NCBI GenBank assembly: GCA_951406725.2
Contig: OX597819.1
Coordinates: 20,150,001 to 20,214,000 of the forward strand
Length of the DNA: 64,000 nt
From: Octopus vulgaris
Lineage: Eukaryota
Reading direction: 5' to 3'
The notes beneath the pieces are model-generated. The model was not told where the DNA came from, made no database searches, and saw only the letters and a list, made by a program, of their open reading frames with translations. Below are positions 19,809 to 63,870 of the stretch, in pieces (positions within the stretch are counted from its first letter, which is position 1; every line of letters begins with the position of its first letter). The position numbers and the translations under genes were made by a program.

Positions 19809-19875
<67 letters not shown>

Positions 19876-20181
19876 ATTCAATAAAAATGGTAAATAATTT
19901 TCCTGTGGTTTATCATGTAACCAACAATTATTTACCGGTAAATTTCGGTATGTAAATACGACAAATTAATTGTCAAGACCTTTGTAAGGTTCAGTATATA
20001 GTAAAGAAAAAATAAGAAGGTTAACAGCAGGCTGTTTCACCTCATACCGAAGGAATTAGAAATGGCAGTCAAAGACCGTTTTTCCAATTTCTATAAGTGG
20101 AGAATCCAAAAACGAAGGCCCTTACGGCTCACATACACAAAACCGGAGTGGCAAATATACGAATTCAATCACTTACCGTTA

Positions 20182-20246
20182 ATAGCGGACATATGTTTCT
20201 GGATCGCAAACGTGGAAATCAGTTTGAATTCCGTCATCGGCGCTAT
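20182..20246 (-). ncRNA. Variant type I hammerhead ribozyme (copy 1)
   Basis: Reverse complement of the 20946-21010 motif. Confidence 0.7.
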
Positions 20247-20945
20247 ATTCGATAGTTTTACTAAATGCCACTAGCCCTCACTTCTGACCCAGCGACATCA
20301 GATAGTGGGGGGAAGAGTGCAGATTTTAAAACTAAGTGGCGACTGGGAACGTAAACTTTCCCTCCAAAATTCTGCCATGCGCGCTTTCTGGGTAATCGTA
20401 ATGGAATGAGGAATCCACATGGTAATTCAATAAAAATGGTAAATAATTTTCCTGTGGTTTATCATGTAACCAACAATTATTTACCGGTAAATTTCGGTAT
20501 GTAAATACGACAAATTAATTGTCAAGACCTTTGTAAGGTTCAGTATATAGTAATTGGAAAATAAGAAGTCTTTGACAGCAGGCTGTTTCACCTCATACCG
20601 AAGGAATTAGAAATGGCAGTCAAAGACCGTTTTTCCAATTACTATATACTGAACCTTACAAAGGTCTTGACAATTAATTTGTCGTATTTACATACCGAAA
20701 TTTACCGGTAAATAATTGTTGGTTACATGATAAACCACAGGAAAATTATTTACCATTTTTATTGAATTACCATGTGGATTCCTCATTCCATTACGATTAC
20801 CCAGAAAGCGCGCATGGCAGAATTTTGGAGGGAAAGTTTACGTTCCCAGTCGCCACTTAGTTTTAAAATCTGCACTCTTCCCCCCACTATCTGATGTCGC
20901 TGGGTCAGAAGTGAGGGCTAGTGGCATTTAGTAAAACTATCGAAT

Positions 20946-21010
20946 ATAGCGCCGATGACGGAATTCAAACTGATTTCCACGTTTGCGATCCAGAAACATA
21001 TGTCCGCTAT
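20946..21010 (+). ncRNA. Variant type I hammerhead ribozyme (copy 2)
   Basis: atagcg-CCGATGA-c-gga...tcc-a-GAAAC-atat-GTC-cgctat. 6-bp stem I, palindromic stem III, core U4>C. Confidence 0.7.
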
Positions 21011-21197
21011 TAACGGTAAGTGATTGAATTCGTATATTTGCCACTCCGGTTTTGTGTATGTGAGCCGTAAGGGCCTTCGTTTTTGGATTCTCCACTAATA
21101 GAAATTGGAAAAACGGTCTTTGACTGCCATTTCTAATTCCTTCGGTATGAGGTGAAACAGCCTCCTGATAACCTTCTTATTTTTTCTTTACTATATA

Positions 21198-21262
<65 letters not shown>

Positions 21263-22113
21263 AAACACACATATAAATGTATATATGTGCGTATGATTGT
21301 ATACAAATGAAATGGAAGGATTATTTGAGATATAATGTTACTTTCAAATGAGAAAGCCGAGTGTGATGTAGATGCAAGCATGTTATACGTAATTTATCTC
21401 ATTTGTAAGATTTTGATTTCTAAAATGGATTCTCTTCATTAAATATAAGGAGAGATAACGATATACGCACATACACACACACACACACATGCATATGTAA
21501 ACCTATATACATATGTATATGCATTTATACGACTACTGACAATCCCTACATTCACACACAAACACACAAATATGTTATGTCTGTATAAAACCGTTAACAC
21601 GTCGGTTTGAAGAAGACGGCATTTTGGCTGTGATTGACGTTTTCAGATCCTCATGTTGTGTTGCTTTGCTTTTCCTGTTGGTTCAATCCGCAGGTCCAAT
21701 CAAGCTTTCTAAAAACAGAGTGCATTGAAACTAGCATTATCCCATGCATCCTTCTTTTTTTTAGTACGGTTCAGTTAAGAGATTTGTCACTACGATTTTC
21801 ATAAATCTAAAGATAATCACTTTTATTCACTAACCGGACACCAACTGGAACAGGCAAAAAAAAAAAAAAAATTAGGCATGAATGTATGTAATACGTCTTC
21901 TTTTATGTATTTAAACATAAACATGCTTAATTGGTTACTCGGACTTTGAATAGCTACTTTCATCGCTGTCAGGCGATGGTCGGAAAGAATTCTTTGGAGA
22001 CCATGTGAGCTAGATTTGTGAAATACGTGCCTTAAACATTCCATTGCTATATATGTTGTGTAGAGTAGGCACACTATTTCTTATCTATCTATCTATCTCT
22101 GTCTGTCTGTCAG

Positions 22114-22505: not shown

Positions 22506-23343
22506 ATATATAGGAGAGAGAGGGAGAGAGAGAGGCAATTGGTGTTGGAGGCAATTGAAACAATAAAGTATATTAGTGTTGGAGATAAAAAACTAACATT
22601 CAATTTCTTTTGCTATGGAACGGCAAAAGAATCTCCATCTATTTTTTATATGAAGGGAATAAAAGCAAGTGACACGAACAAACATCGAATTAAATTATTT
22701 AACGCAAAGCAATTACGTTAACAAAATGACATTTGGTGAGCGCAAATAACTAGATTATCGCAATTATATTCTGGGGAATTTTGCACATGTTATCATTCTT
22801 GGAAGTGTAAACACTGCAGAAATAATACCACGTGGACATTTTCGAAAGCAGACACGCCTCCCTCGACGAATCAGTTTCGTATCTGTGCTTTACGAACTTG
22901 CAATTAGATTTAACCCTCTCCTCTATTGTTACTCAGCTATCTCTGGCGTACACTGAAAGATAACAATATTCTCTCAAAGGATTCAGTAACACTAGCGAGG
23001 GAAAATGCTGAAATCAAATCAAATGACGTGATTCTAAAGGTGCTTAAATTTACCTCTGCTGCATATTTATAGATCTGTAATTTAAACTCCGCTTTTAACA
23101 GATTACGTCATAGTTACACGCAGTCTAAACAACCAGAATACTGTACGTTACAGCTGCTGAAGAAGAGAAAGCCAGCGCAATAAAAATAAAATGTGCAGAA
23201 TATTGGAAAATGAAAATCACCATCTTTTATTTACAGAATACCACCTGTTAGACGGTGTTGCCCATCTAAAAAGCAAATAATTATACAGAATAAGTGAAAC
23301 AGCGTTAGGTAGAATTTAAAAAGAGAACTTTTGAGTAAAAACA

Positions 23344-24580
23344 TATTTGTTTCTTTATTACCGACAAGGGGCTAAACATAGAGGGGACTAAGAAGGACAG
23401 ACAAACGGATTAAGTCGATTACATCGACTCCAGTGCGTAACTGGTACTTAATTTATCGACCCCGAATGGATGAAAGGCAAAGTCGACCTCGGCGTGATTT
23501 GAACTCTGAACGTAACCGCAGACGAAATACGGCTACGCATTTTCCCGGCATGCTAACGGTTCTGCCAGCTCGCCGCCTTACTTCAGTAAAAATATATGTT
23601 TCTTTATTACCCACAAGGGGCTAAACATAGAAGGGACAAACAAGGACAGACAAACGGATTAAATCGATTACATCGACCCCAGTGCTTAACTGGTACTTAA
23701 TTTATCGACCCCGAAAGGATGAAAGGCAAAGTCGACCTCGGCGTGATTTGAACTCTGAACGTAACGGCAGACGAAATACGGCTACGCATTTCGCCCGGCG
23801 TGCTAACGGTTCTGCCAGCTCGCCGCCTTACTTCAGTAAAAATATATCTGTTTCTTTATTACCCAAAAGGGGCTAAACATAGAAGGGACAAATAAGGACA
23901 GACTAACGGATTGAGTCGATTACATCGACCCCAGTGCGTAACTGGTACTTAATTTATCGACCCCGAAAGGATGAAAGGCAAAGTCGACCTCGGCGTGATT
24001 TGAACTCTGAACGTAACGGCAGACGAAATACGGCTACGCATTTCGCCCGGCGTGCTAACGGTTCTGCCAGCTCGCCGATTTACTTCAGTAAAAATATATG
24101 TTTCTTTATTACCCACAAGGGGCTAAACATAGAAGGGACAAACAAGGACAGACAAACGGATTAAATCGATTACATCGACCCCAGTGCTTAACTGGTACTT
24201 AATTTATCGACCCCGAAAGGATGAAAGGCAAAGTCGACCTCGGCGTGATTTGAACTCTGAACGTAACGGCAGACGAAATACGGCTACGCATTTCGCCCGG
24301 CGTGCTAACGGTTCTGCCAGCTCGCCGCCTTACTTCAGTAAAAATATATCTGTTTCTTTATTACCCAAAAGGGGCTAAACATAGAAGGGACAAATAAGGA
24401 CAGACTAACGGATTGAGTCGATTACATCGACCCCAGTGCGTAACTGGTACTTAATTTATCGACCCCGAAAGGATGAAAGGCAAAGTCGACCTCGGCGTGA
24501 TTTGAACTCTGAACGTAACGGCAGACGAAATACGGCTACGCATTTCGCCCGGCGTGCTAACGGTTCTGCCAGCTCGCCGA
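23344..24580 (-). repeat. Head-to-tail array of five full-length family A SINEs
   Basis: Periods 249, 252, 250 and 252 bp; units joined by tacttcagtaaaaatatat. Confidence 0.92.
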
Positions 24581-25684
24581 TTTACTTTAGTTAAAATATA
24601 TCGCTCTCAAACGGGGTTGACTACGGGATAAAGAAAAAATTCCGTCATAGAAAGACGGGAGGTGACAGGGAAATAATTAAGAAGGAATTTGTTTGAGATC
24701 GACGTCTTGTTCATAAAGATATGGTCAGACAAACAATTAGTGTCAAAGAAGAAGGCAGAAGTTAATTCATGTTGCGAAATATGGGGAGGAGAGAATAATT
24801 AAAATAAAGGATAAAAGAGAAAAAGTAAGCTGAATGGGAATTAAAGGAGGATTGCTCCTGTATTGAACCAAAAGTATTCAGTATCATTGGTTCGAAAGTA
24901 AATCAAAAGTCTTGATTGTGAGATTCTAGTATAAACAGCTGACCTTATATCGGAGGAATTTTTATCAATGTTAACCAACAAGTTCTCGACAAACATATCG
25001 TGTTTGTTGGCGCCAGCAGAAGAACAACTAATGTCACAAAAAGAACTACTCGCATCGTAACAAGTGCGGGCTAATTGCATGCACGAATTTCACGTGTAAA
25101 ATGTATACATCCTGTCTGAAACAATTCGACGTGGGTCACTGTGACAATAATATCACAAACATGCAGGAAGGAAGTTGGAAGTTTGGGGTGGAATTATTAA
25201 CGTCTCTTATTGTTCAAAATTAAAACGGGCAGATGCTTAACTTTGATTCAAACATCGTTGAACAACACTCCTCTTCTTTACATCAAGTAACTTCTAAGGT
25301 TCAAATTTAGCTTTTGATCATAAGTTAAATAACAATGATCAGGTTTGCACACCACTTTTCAGGAGGTAATCCTTAATTGATTATTGAGAATAATACCCTG
25401 CAGTTTTGCACAACGGCGAGAAATTATCTGTTTATCAGCAGGACAACAATGCCTCTTTACAAGTAGCAGAGAAAAAGTATGCAGAAAGTTAGAAAGTAGA
25501 GACACAGAAGTTATTAGCAAGTGTCTTTGCGGAAGTTATGAGGCGACAAAAGTTAGCCCAACAAAATTAGGAAATTTTGATTGTTAATACGCATGAATAT
25601 ATAATCAACTGCATCGGCACCATTCTTGGGAAACCTGGCTTCAAAAACAAGAAAGAACAAGGCAAATCAAGATATTGCAAATAT

Positions 25685-42393: not shown

Positions 42394-43470
42394 TCAAGGA
42401 TGGGTTGTACTTTGTTCGATCTCATTTATGGCATGATTATCGTCGATGAAGCCTGAAGTAAACAGTTCAGCAAGTACAGTTACTACAGCCATCAGCTTTT
42501 GGGGTTCATTGTCTGAATTGATACATAATTTCTTAGGGTGAATCTTTAATTGTTTCTTGTGGTATAGCGCATAACATGTTAAATATTGGTTTGCTTCTTC
42601 ATTTGTTTGCGATCGTTCTTTGTTCTGTAATTTGCAGCTGATGTTATTTATTTTCAATTTATATTTTCAAATTCCAGAAACGATGCTTTGCTTTTAACGT
42701 TGCATGATCAGATCACATCAGAGTGTCTATTAATCACGTTTTCCCTGGATGTGATGATTTCCAGAGTTTGTTTAAGGCATAAGTTGCACACAAGTGATGT
42801 TCCGTTGTATGGCGCAGAATTTTCCATAATAGACCAGTGAGTTGTTTCTGCCTTCAGACGAAGTTCGACAGTGATGTGCAGTGATTTTATTTATATCGGA
42901 AAATAATGTAAGATGGTTACGGAGACGAAATCTCATGGTAATATACACGCATATCTGTGCACCTGCCTTCACATCACATTTGTAAATTACACTCTTTATC
43001 ATGCAGTTGTTAAATTCGCATTCTTCTTTATGTCTACAGTTACATATGATATAATACGTTTATTTCTCCCAGCGGAGTTACGACTTTCCTCGTCCTTCTT
43101 AATCGTGTTCTCATTCTTATGTATGGATTGGATCGTCAATTGTGTGGTGTTGTTTGGCTCTGTTTTTTTTATGGATGATCTTATCTGTAAATATTCCATC
43201 ATCGTGAACTGTGTTATTAGACACTGTCGCTTTTTTTTCCAGTTTTATTCAATTTAGTTTCCTATTATTTAGTATATGTGATATTCTAGATTGTGAGAGG
43301 TCGCGTATGTTAATTTTCCATAATGTCACTTAATGACTTTGTGATATTTTGAAGATCTTGGGAAGTACCTATCTAATGCTGCGAAGAAATCCTGACCTCT
43401 TTTGAATTTTACGTGTGAAATGAAAATTTTCTTAAACCAAATAATTTCATCACTACATTTTGAATTTCGT
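42394..43470 (-). pseudogene. Penelope-like element remnant (RT thumb/linker plus GIY-YIG endonuclease)
   Basis: EIIWFKKIF..GQDFFAALDRYFPRSSKYHKVIK..KLTYAT, then KSVIYKCDV..VYI..RNHLTLF..TSLSNFV..HWSIMENSAPYNGTSLVCNLCLKQTLEIITSRENVINRHSD. Same family as 11463-11980. Confidence 0.8.
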
Positions 43471-45980: not shown

Positions 45981-47186
45981 TAAGGTTGTCCTAAAAGTTC
46001 GTAAACACTTGCGAAAATTTGAATTTTCATGCAATTTTTAATTGTTTGTTTGGGTCTATATTGTTATAGTTACCTTCATCTTTATATTCCAGATGTTATC
46101 CAATTGATCAGTTTATTTGCAATCTGTGTTACGCCGAATCTCTCTGCAAACTATTCCAAGGGCATGCAGAAGAGATTTGTGCTGCCGAAAGTGAAGGAAT
46201 AATCGCATATGCGGCGATCTCAAAGTGGTACAAGCGTTTCGATTCTGGCGACATGACTCTTGAAGATAAGCCTCGTTCGGGACGGCCGTTAAAGTTAGAT
46301 GATGGAGACTTACAAACCGGGTTGAACATTACGCCTTCATCGAGTACTCGAGAATTGGCTGATGAGCTTGGAGTTGGCAAATCAACAATACACCGACACT
46401 TGAGGCAACTTGATTTTGTTCATAAAAAGCCGCGCCAAGATCCACACGAACTCACCGAAGCACAAGCCAACAGATGAGTTGAAATTTGCCGTCAATTGCT
46501 CAGCAATCCATTGGACGACTGGTTTTGGAAGCGCATTGTGACTTCGGACGAGAAATGGGTCTATCTGATCCAGCACAATCGAGACAAGCGATGGGTTCAG
46601 AAAGGGCAAGAGACACCGTCGGTTCCAAAGCAAGAAAGTCATGTTGTGCCTTTGGTGGAACTTTGAAGGAATCATGCATTTTGAGTTGGTTCCGAGTGGT
46701 CGTTCCATCAGTGCCGAACTTTACTGTCAGCAACTGGAGCGGGTCTACGAAATGTTGAAGCAAAAGTACCCGGCTCTGATCAACCGAAAGCGCGCTTTGA
46801 TGCAGCAGGACAATGCCAAGCCACACACCACCAGGAAGACGAAAGACAAGTTTGAAGAGATGGCCGGCGTTGAGGTTCTGCCACATTCAGCCTACAGTCC
46901 TGACTGTGCTCCATCAGATTACGGCCTTTTCCGCTCAATGCAACAGTTTCTTAAGGGCCGCCGATTCGACTCGTTTAATGAAGTCGAGGAAGCGTGTCAT
47001 ATATTCTTTGATTCGAAGCCGGCTGAATGGTACTTTGACCTGATTCGACAGCTTGCAGATCGATGGCAGAAAGTCTTGGAAAATAATGGTCTTTATTTTG
47101 AGGAATAATTTTTGTTGTTTTTGTTAGTACTTGGCGAGTAAAAATTCAATTTTAGCAAGTGTTTACGAACTTTTGGGACAACCTAA
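45981..47186 (+). mobile_element. Near full-length mariner DNA transposon (1206 bp)
   Basis: About 45-bp TIRs (taaggttgtcctaaaagttcgtaaacacttgc / gcaagtgtttacgaacttttgggacaacctaa), TA dinucleotide on both sides. Confidence 0.93.
46166..47108 (+). pseudogene. Mariner transposase pseudogene
   Basis: LEDKPRSGRP, IVTSDEKW, QQDNAKPH and YSPDCAPSDYGLF motifs. N-terminus missing, TGA at 46475, frameshift near 46637. Confidence 0.93.
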
Positions 47187-63108: not shown

Positions 63109-63870
63109 TACGAGGTGGTATCAAAAATTTCCCAAACTAGTTCTATATGCACAAACACAGCACCATTTGGTTACTGTCAACAAACGGTTGATGGCAGCGC
63201 AGTGAGAGCTAGCAGTGTACCGTGTGACATTGCGGAGTTGACTTCGCAAACTGTAAAATCTGCGTTCTTCTGATCACATATATGCTATAGCCTGCCATTT
63301 TGTCCTGGACAAAAAGTTGGAACTAAGAGCCAACGTGAAATTTTGCGTTAAACCTGGTAAGTCTGCTACAGAGACATTAAGCATGCTGTGGCAAAAGTAC
63401 GGCTTCGAGGCAATAAATCGTACGCATGATTTCGGGTGGCACGACATTTCAAAAGCGGAAGAACGCCTTTAGAAAACGATGTGCATTCAGGAAGACCTGC
63501 TATGAACGTGTGGGAAAAATTAATCACTTTGTGCATGAGGATCGTTGGAGAGCAACGAACAAATTTTTTGGTTTTTCGTATGAGTCCGTGCAGGAAATCC
63601 TCACAACTGGATTCTTCTCAAGGACACCTTGCCACCGAACTCTACTCATTTAGCAGTTTCTCGCAAAAGGCATGGTATCGATTCCGCATCCGCCCTACTA
63701 ACCAGATTTGGCACCTGCGGACTTTCATCTCTTCCTTAAGATTAAAAGGTAGTTCAAAGGTCGCCGTTTTAACACCGTTGTGGAGATGAATAACGAGTCG
63801 CAGAAATTCCTCTACTCGCTTATGGAAAACGACGTCTAGACCGGATTCCAAGAGTGTCATGAACAGTGTT
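63109..63870 (+). mobile_element. Decayed, internally deleted mariner
   Basis: TIR-like tacgaggtggtatcaaaaa; ELRANVKFCVKPGKSATETLSML..HFKSGRTPLENDVHSGRP; PHPPY*PDLAPADFHLF. Confidence 0.8.

What the first reader, a model, noticed from the sequence alone, without database searches (positions are those of the whole stretch)
19874..21197. Young 549-bp ribozyme monomer arranged as 1.4 tandem copies plus exactly one inverted, circularly permuted copy
The tandem period (19874 to 20423) and the inverted arm (actatata at 20641 to actatata at 21190) are both exactly 549 bp but start at different points of the monomer. The roughly 565-bp arms differ at only a few positions. Two permutations of one unit point to a circular or concatemeric template with a strand switch. 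The inverted arm ends at an internal TATATA that merges with the flanking (TA)n.
Basis: partly seen in the sequence, partly recalled or inferred. Interest (0 to 1): 0.75.

Follow-up and report, generated by a model that had tools for sequence, protein, structure and literature searches.

The report
Two-armed hammerhead retrozyme insertion
This is one copy of a young, non-coding 549-base jumping repeat that carries a hammerhead ribozyme motif and sits in a TA microsatellite as two back-to-back arms, likely made when a Penelope-type enzyme copied the RNA from both cut DNA ends at two fixed sites; that its inverted arm is one unit long is chance.

Summary
The structure is in the assembly as described: 549-bp period, 558-bp inverted arms with 3 mismatches, (TA)n on both sides. 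The unit carries a type I hammerhead that Rfam misses but that covaries across subfamilies (6 of 17 pairs compensatory). It is a dispersed family. Of 105 loci mapped, 48 are inverted, all head-to-head. Arm 3' ends fall at two fixed sites (unit positions ~428 and ~547), and where both ends use them, 29 of 31 loci pair one with the other. Hydra-like Penelope elements in the same genome show the same long-end/short-end rule (10 of 10). Best reading: a non-LTR retrozyme inserted by a Penelope-type RT/endonuclease that primes both target strands. 'Exactly one monomer' is coincidence (3 of 153 arms within 549±15, 3.5 expected). A circular template is plausible, not shown. This locus's own junction was not found in four public contig sets. 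Retrozymes, their link to Penelope elements, inverted 5'-truncated copies and one-ended tails are all published; the scan has noted this architecture before on other DNA, including other families in this genome.

The parts
19809..19873 (.). left (TA)n target microsatellite
   Evidence: TRF 19809-19875
19874..20422 (-). outer full 549-bp unit of the left arm; RNA sense is the minus strand (unit position 1 = 20422, 549 = 19874); its 3' end at 19874 is the 'long' (~547-549) end site
19874..19994 (-). 121-nt 'tail' (unit 429-549): beyond the short end site, present at only this outer end of the insertion
   Evidence: compare one-ended PLE tail in PMC8557442
20182..20246 (-). type I hammerhead, copy 1; predicted cut between 20188 and 20187
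20423..20640 (-). inner partial unit of the left arm (unit 549 down to ~332); no hammerhead
20553..20576 (.). mosaic patch in which the loop has been made partly complementary to its other side; polishing artefact or quasi-palindrome correction, unresolved
   Evidence: absent from four contig sets
20639..20646 (.). head-to-head inversion junction; 8-nt overlap of the two arms with one mismatch
20639..21197 (+). right (inverted) arm, 559 nt: unit 419-549 then 1-428; no tail at its 3' end
20946..21010 (+). type I hammerhead, copy 2; predicted cut after 21004
21192..21197 (+). internal TATATA, the 'short' end site (unit 423-428), merging with the target repeat
21198..21286 (.). right (TA)n target microsatellite
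   Evidence: TRF 21192-21286

Best explanation
This is one insertion of a 549-bp non-coding hammerhead repeat (a non-LTR retrozyme) in a (TA)n tract, likely made by a borrowed Penelope-type reverse transcriptase/endonuclease that primed cDNA from both cut target strands at two fixed AT-rich sites of the RNA. Shown: family, hammerhead fold, (TA)n target, head-to-head polarity, two fixed 3' end sites used one per arm, variable 5' ends, junction microhomology. Inferred steps: (1) loci with two hammerheads in tandem are transcribed and self-cleave to unit-length RNA, which probably circularises (about 55-60%); (2) the enzyme nicks both strands in (TA)n; one end primes at unit ~547-549, the other at the TATATA at 428; (3) both cDNAs run 5'-ward over the same unit sequence and past the ribozyme cut site, for up to about 3 units; (4) their 3' ends anneal by a few bases and are filled in. 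This locus has one hammerhead per arm, so it cannot release a full unit; it is likely a dead end that would give a ~560-bp RNA hairpin if read through.
For: Family: 83 exact copies of an 18-nt hammerhead motif and 548 of a 22-nt unit motif in a 2.8-Gb genome; youngest copies 98-100% alike. Hammerhead: on 15 chosen subfamily representatives all 255 cells pair and 6 of 17 pairs show compensatory change; slid controls reach at most 42% paired. The N7 position varies, helix III changes between palindromic loops, and the oldest subfamily has the U3-A8 core variant described for PLE hammerheads in PMC4209133. Architecture: 48 of 105 loci inverted, 48 head-to-head, 0 tail-to-tail; 24 of 57 in the position-ordered subset. 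78 of 96 inverted-arm ends and 51 of 57 single-arm ends are at the two sites; 29 mixed pairs against 2 same-site pairs (binomial 2e-7; 15.6 expected by permutation). Arm overlaps of 5 nt or more at 15 of 48 junctions, against 0.6% for random exact matches (the overlaps come from gapped BLAST, so the comparison flatters the effect). Neither arm inside the other in 19 of 45 loci; containment 14 of 27 against 16.8 for shuffled arms; both arms over 560 nt in 7 loci. 16 locus-private substitutions in 11 loci are on both arms, so the arms share a source. Coding PLEs in this genome (RT YRDD, DKT, C-terminal GIY-YIG-like domain) also sit head-to-head in (TA)n with one long-tail and one short end in 10 of 10 inverted loci among 41 examined. 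A purified PLE protein cuts and extends both strands, starts internally at two sites and is modelled as a dimer (PMC11167929). An unrelated sample (X10) holds another opposite-strand joint of this unit at depth 45.5.
Against: No direct autonomous parent was found: the unit matches the sampled PLE family only in hammerhead helix III and a 3' tail motif, significant in 2 of 6 comparisons. The coding elements were identified by motifs read by eye; Pfam and PDB gave no hit. Most private substitutions are in one copy only: 56 against 7 for tandem units, 62 against 16 for arms; two variants are shared by tandem units of one arm but missing from the other arm (L017, L026), which fits two template molecules. 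The two 5' ends lie within 30 nt of each other in 14 of 48 loci (6.1 expected, P=0.001), as fold-back predicts for a subset. 5' ends are mildly enriched near the ribozyme cut (10 of 153 at 229-245, 4.7 expected under a uniform null; two exactly at 236), which points to some linear cleaved templates. The long/short rule also holds for coding PLEs, so it is no evidence for a circle. The base of helix II is a C.A or A.A mismatch and this copy has C at U4, so cleavage is not assured. In PMC11167929 initiation needed no RNA-target homology, whereas here both sites resemble (TA)n.
Confidence: 0.72

Rival explanations
1. Self-priming fold-back: one cDNA (or an antisense template) folds on itself and copies itself back to an AT-rich site, as proposed for head-to-head PLE palindromes in PMC3846280.
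For: This locus is compatible: the right arm lies inside the left arm with a 91-nt loop. 26 of 45 loci are of that kind, 8 with offsets of 13 nt or less. 5' ends coincide more often than chance. The loop here is a quasi-palindrome.
Against: 19 of 45 loci have neither arm inside the other; containment is no commoner than for shuffled arms (14 of 27 against 16.8); those loci obey the same long/short rule.
Confidence: 0.12
2. L1-style twin priming on a long linear multimer: the second primer lands at any AT-rich site upstream, and the two arms copy different stretches of one transcript (model recalled; abstract start of PMC2837659 seen).
For: Gives head-to-head polarity and junction microhomology. 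Tandem units within a locus often differ; two 5' ends lie exactly at the ribozyme cut; arm-specific variants in L017 and L026.
Against: Predicts about half same-site pairs; 2 of 31 seen, both with an extra jump at the end. Needs transcripts of up to about 4 units, and arrays could only shrink over generations, yet multi-unit arms occur in subfamilies from 78% to 99% identity. An 18-nt duplication is in all three units of L066 and 7 private substitutions fill all tandem units of an arm, which needs a one-unit bottleneck or local duplication.
Confidence: 0.09
3. The inversion at this locus is a fold-back read or assembly artefact.
For: The junction and the central mosaic are in none of four public contig sets (two were read to 76-80%, all may be other individuals, and a hole proves nothing). 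The mosaic patch and three complement-type substitutions look like consensus noise; some arms elsewhere are deletion-rich (L007, L017).
Against: Flanks are not mirrored; arms differ in length and end site; 48 of 48 inversions share one polarity and follow an end-site rule; an independent sample shows a like joint. I put about 40% on the 24-nt patch alone being an artefact.
Confidence: 0.04
4. Two independent insertions into one (TA)n tract, or later recombination between copies.
For: (TA)n is a repeated target.
Against: No TA spacer at the junction; strict polarity; private variants shared by both arms, including unit position 67 at this locus.
Confidence: 0.02

Closest known systems
Metazoan non-LTR retrozymes (Cervera & de la Pena 2020, PMC7229834, passages and Discussion seen; Li, Clavereau & Pollet 2026, 10.64898/2026.07.22.740005, part 1 of 5 and passages seen)
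   Same: Non-coding tandem units with one type I hammerhead each, low GC, dispersed, co-existing with PLEs; proposed circRNA template copied into tandem cDNA by a PLE RT.
   Different: Unit 549 bp (150-450 bp in the 2020 paper; 51-972 bp in the 2026 preprint). Word searches found no 'inverted' in the first and one, in a reference title, in the second. Here about 40% of loci are head-to-head with two fixed end sites. RNA expression and circles are shown there, not here.
Insertion units of endonuclease-positive Penelope-like elements, Hydra clade nearest (Craig et al. 2021, PMC8557442, passages and section 11 seen; Arkhipova et al. 2013, PMC3846280, passages seen)
   Same: Partial tandems, an adjacent inverted 5'-truncated copy, head-to-head polarity, a tail often at one end only, (TA)n targets, hammerhead; non-autonomous Chlamys with multicopy head-to-tail insertions are also described.
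   Different: No ORF; tail 121 nt rather than 30-40; both arms can exceed one unit; the one-end tail is near-strict here (29 of 31).
PAc (Poseidon of Anolis) in vitro TPRT (Frangieh et al. 2024, PMC11167929, parts 1-2 of 4 seen)
   Same: Both target strands cut and extended, AT-rich target, two internal start sites that bound the tail, predicted dimer, hammerhead cleavage not required.
   Different: There initiation is in an AC-rich stem-loop without target homology and start site does not differ by strand; here both sites are TA-like and the two arms take different sites.
L1 twin priming (recalled; listing and abstract start of PMC2837659 seen)
   Same: Head-to-head inversion, second primer at an internal target-like site, microhomology at the junction.
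   Different: L1 arms are non-overlapping parts of one RNA with a poly(A) first site; here the arms overlap in sequence and both sites are internal and fixed.

Membership tests
Non-LTR retrozyme | Type I hammerhead in each unit | tested here: met
   Core, three helices and covariation; Rfam no hit; atypical mismatch at the base of helix II
Non-LTR retrozyme | Head-to-tail tandem units of a few hundred bp, dispersed, low GC | tested here: met
   549-bp period; arms up to 3.1 units; 27 of 107 mapped loci hold two full hammerheads in tandem. This locus does not.
Non-LTR retrozyme | No protein coding, no LTR | tested here: met
   Longest stop-free frame 89 aa in the doubled unit; no tblastn match of the PLE protein to the unit. 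PBS and PPT were not looked for.
Non-LTR retrozyme | Self-cleavage of the RNA | not testable with these tools
   Indirect only: two 5' ends exactly at the predicted cut
Non-LTR retrozyme | Expressed as unit-length circular RNA | tested here: inconclusive
   Only contigs were available; they cannot tell a circle from a tandem
PLE-mobilised non-autonomous element | PLE insertion anatomy: partial tandem, inverted head-to-head copy, one-ended tail, (TA)n target | tested here: met
   48 of 48 head-to-head; 29 of 31 mixed ends; same in 10 of 10 inverted coding PLE loci
PLE-mobilised non-autonomous element | Sequence homology to the pLTR or 3' end of an autonomous PLE | tested here: inconclusive
   Shared helix III and tail-end motif; unit 330-549 beat shuffles in 2 of 6 PLE tails, unit 1-330 in 0 of 6; no strong blastn match
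Autonomous Penelope-like element | RT plus GIY-YIG ORF | tested here: not met
   No ORF in the unit; the ORF is in separate elements
Hydra-clade PLE (candidate helper, not the finding) | DKT motif, RWK motif, CxxC and CxH around E and N of a C-terminal EN, CxCX5C linker, canonical hammerhead, (TA)n target | tested here: inconclusive
   DKT, CxxC, CxH, hammerhead and (TA)n present; RWL in place of RWK; no CxCX5C seen; no tree built

The most novel reading that the evidence does not exclude
Each two-armed locus is the footprint of one Penelope-type enzyme dimer holding one 549-nt ribozyme circle, priming both cut target strands at two fixed sites 121 nt apart and rolling both cDNAs round the circle with strand displacement. 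The PLE 'inverted pLTR plus one-ended tail' would then be obligate two-site priming of one RNA, a mechanism distinct from L1 twin priming and from fold-back, and these loci would be direct genomic proof that retrozyme circles are reverse-transcription templates.
Probability: 0.35. Interest if true: 0.7.

Novelty: new member of a known kind. Interest (0 to 1): 0.42.

Why it matters
How Penelope-like elements make their tandem-plus-inverted insertions is named as open in PMC8557442, and mobilisation of retrozymes by PLEs is proposed but not shown (PMC7229834; 10.64898/2026.07.22.740005). This family supplies a short RNA, two mapped start sites and a near-strict pairing rule, so one in vitro reaction can separate dual priming from fold-back and circle from linear template. 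It has also left many near-perfect long inverted repeats in the genome, possible sources of double-stranded RNA. The single locus has no special meaning beyond being a typical member.

Tried and rejected
Rfam at gathering and E-value thresholds: no ribozyme, only hairpin-driven miRNA hits below cut-off. MFE folding of the hammerhead alone: z -1.4, helix I formed, helices II and III not as drawn. Sequencing runs: no RNA holder listed on record; guessed-RNA run X2 has contigs over the unit with a go-back joint, which shows neither expression nor a circle. The junction and mosaic of this locus were not covered by any listed piece in X1, X10, X17, X19; a hole proves nothing. 'One exact round of a circle': no excess of arms near 549. 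Mirror-symmetric variants, which would reveal a linear multimer copied twice: mismatch rates for same-unit inverted, tandem and different-unit inverted pairs were 0.42, 0.55 and 0.75% in young loci and 1.29, 1.24 and 1.73% in the rest; not decisive and inflated by this locus's mosaic. A second hammerhead at unit 370-400: no core or helix I; at most a vestige (read by eye). Search for the autonomous parent through shared motifs: none found. L236 looked like a retrozyme-PLE chimera but the pieces are separate insertions. My working label 'Neptune' for the helper was dropped for Hydra-like after reading PMC8557442 section 11. Pfam and PDB searches of the helper proteins: no hit above cut-off. Earlier findings by sequence: none. 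Literature searches that found no description of paired end sites in retrozymes: (open-access library only; no supplements were read, and Fig. S9 of PMC7229834 and the supplements of PMC8557442 may bear on this).

Full report
Observation. The window holds, between two (TA)n tracts, a 549-bp unit at 19874-20422, a further 0.4 unit to about 20640, and an inverted arm at 20639-21197. The arms are 558 nt with three mismatches. ACTATATA occurs at 20641 and 21190 as stated. The flanks are unrelated to each other.

Ribozyme. Rfam finds none, but a type I hammerhead lies on the minus strand of the unit (core at 20240) and on the plus strand of the inverted arm (20952): a 6-bp helix I, core CCGAUGA...GAAA, a long helix II and a palindromic helix III. 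I number the unit on that strand (1 = 20422); the predicted cut follows position 235. On 15 representatives that I chose from 55 distinct hammerhead sequences, all 255 cells pair and 6 of 17 pairs change on both sides; partners slid by 1-3 columns reach at most 42%. The sequences are related, so these are few independent events. N7 varies, the cut triplet is GUC or GUU, and the oldest subfamily has the U3-A8 core reported for PLE hammerheads (PMC4209133, part 1 of 4 seen). The base of helix II is a mismatch in all subfamilies; a mismatch there is reported in an axolotl hammerhead family (PMC7229834, passage). Cleavage was not tested.

Family. The own genome (2.8 Gb, an animal; a cephalopod by my recall of its repeat make-up, not from any call) gave 872 candidates, of which 40 were scored, 83 exact matches to an 18-nt hammerhead motif and 548 to a 22-nt unit motif. 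I mapped 105 distinct loci against a concatemer of the unit: 48 chosen by best score or hammerhead motif (biased to long, young copies) and 57 taken in genome order from the first 100 of the 548 matches. Dropped before counting: overlapping fetches of one insertion, L193 and L194 (same structure as L089), and separate fragments more than 80 nt away (L025, L076, L163). Loci fetched later were not added to the counts.

Anatomy. 48 of 105 loci are inverted (24 of 57 in the ordered set), all head-to-head with 3' ends outward, none tail-to-tail. 3' ends cluster at unit 416-429 (an internal TATATA) and 539-549(+6): 78 of 96 ends in inverted loci, 51 of 57 in single-arm loci. Where both arms use these sites, 29 loci have one of each and 2 have 428 twice (P = 2e-7; 15.6 same-site pairs expected); both exceptions carry extra unit-derived bases at one end, in L061 from the 549 site. 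5' ends scatter over the unit; arms are 30-1723 nt, 57 of 153 over 560 nt; arms overlap by 5 nt or more at 15 of 48 junctions. The window's locus is typical: left arm ends at 549, right arm at 428, junction 328/419 with an 8-nt overlap and one mismatch. Its 559-nt arm is unremarkable: 3 of 153 arms lie within 549±15, about 3.5 expected. ACTATATA recurs because the junction used the same self-complementary TATA motif as the end site.

Helper. [quoted passage not shown] They fit the Hydra clade of PMC8557442 (section 11) in part; Pfam and PDB are blank. Among 41 such loci, 10 showed both ends, and all 10 are head-to-head with one long-tail and one short end. Homology to the unit is slight: helix III and a tail-end motif, significant in 2 of 6 tests. 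The true parent was not found.

Mechanism. Fold-back copying needs one arm inside the other. That fails in 19 of 45 clean two-piece loci, and containment is at chance level (14 of 27 against 16.8). L1-style twin priming on a multimer predicts about half same-site pairs. Two cDNAs primed from the two target strands at two different fixed sites, then joined at their 3' ends, explains polarity, pairing, overlap and microhomology, and matches a purified PLE that cuts and extends both strands from two internal sites (PMC11167929, parts 1-2 of 4 seen). Sixteen private substitutions shared by both arms in 11 loci show a common source. Against: 5' ends coincide within 30 nt in 14 of 48 loci (P = 0.001), so fold-back, as argued in PMC3846280 (passages), may make a subset; two loci have arm-specific variants.

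Circle or linear. For a circle: arms pass the predicted cut site 148 times (inflated by how half the loci were chosen); multi-unit arms persist from 78% to 99% identity subfamilies, so concatemers are regenerated; L066 has an 18-nt duplication in all three units and 7 private substitutions fill all tandem units of an arm. Against, or neutral: 56 private substitutions are unit-specific; 5' ends are mildly enriched at the cut, two exactly at 236; coding PLEs obey the same end rule; template jumping or local duplication could also regenerate tandems. I put the circle at 55-60%.

Artefact check. No raw reads were on offer. In four contig sets this junction and the patch are absent, which is uninformative for a young insertion in other individuals. 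X10, a separate sample, carries another opposite-strand joint of the unit (20210/20595, depth 45.5) and a unit end followed by (TA)n. With unmirrored flanks and rule-bound polarity across 48 loci, the inversion is very likely real; the patch is undecided.

Known and new. Non-LTR retrozymes and the proposal that PLEs copy their circles are published (PMC7229834, passages and Discussion; 10.64898/2026.07.22.740005, part 1 of 5 and passages), as are inverted 5'-truncated copies, one-ended tails and (TA)n targets of PLEs (PMC8557442). Seven searches found no paper giving paired end sites for retrozymes; the library omits most subscription papers and I read no supplements. The scan's own notes report this architecture for other families here and in other genomes; my reading and counts came first, and those notes are not support. 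Verdict: a real, new family member of a known kind; the useful addition is the quantified two-site rule. Interest 0.42.

Noticed in passing
window 20553-20576; 20024, 20028, 20095 versus the right arm: Loop patch rewritten to match its opposite side, plus three arm differences that are all complement swaps (A/T, C/G, A/T). Polishing noise or quasi-palindrome correction.
   Followed up: partly
window 23334-24602: 5.1 tandem copies of a 252-bp repeat, 95% matches; the same repeat abuts the 5' end of L151. No hammerhead by my pattern scan.
   Followed up: partly
window 46070-47105 and 63430-63786: Broken frames that resemble a mariner-type transposase (recalled likeness).
   Followed up: no
window 43287-43463: Weak tblastn match to the PLE protein P0002, E 2.7e-4; possible old PLE remnant.
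   Followed up: no
L066 (G000:C13:44506200-44510400): Three units with period 565; each has an 18-nt duplication that starts at the ribozyme cut site.
   Followed up: partly
L225:4869-4957 (G000:C1 near 130857870): Only the tail (unit 464-544, 84%) embedded, apparently antisense, in a pyrimidine-rich stretch with a hammerhead-like motif that looks like another PLE's 3' end. Possible clue to the unit's origin.
   Followed up: partly
L189:1420-1680: About 30 nt of the right flank appears in inverted form at the 5' junction.
   Followed up: no
L129, L160, L186: Oldest subfamilies have a U at core position 3; L129 has the U3-A8 pair, L160 and L186 keep G8.
   Followed up: partly
L089, L193, L194: Same 463-nt copy with the same ends on C7 and twice on C31: segmental duplication or redundant assembly.
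   Followed up: no
L084, L110, L111: Abundant Hydra-like PLEs with long asparagine-rich inserts between RT and endonuclease, as described for rotifer PLEs in PMC3846280; no Pfam family recognises them.
   Followed up: partly
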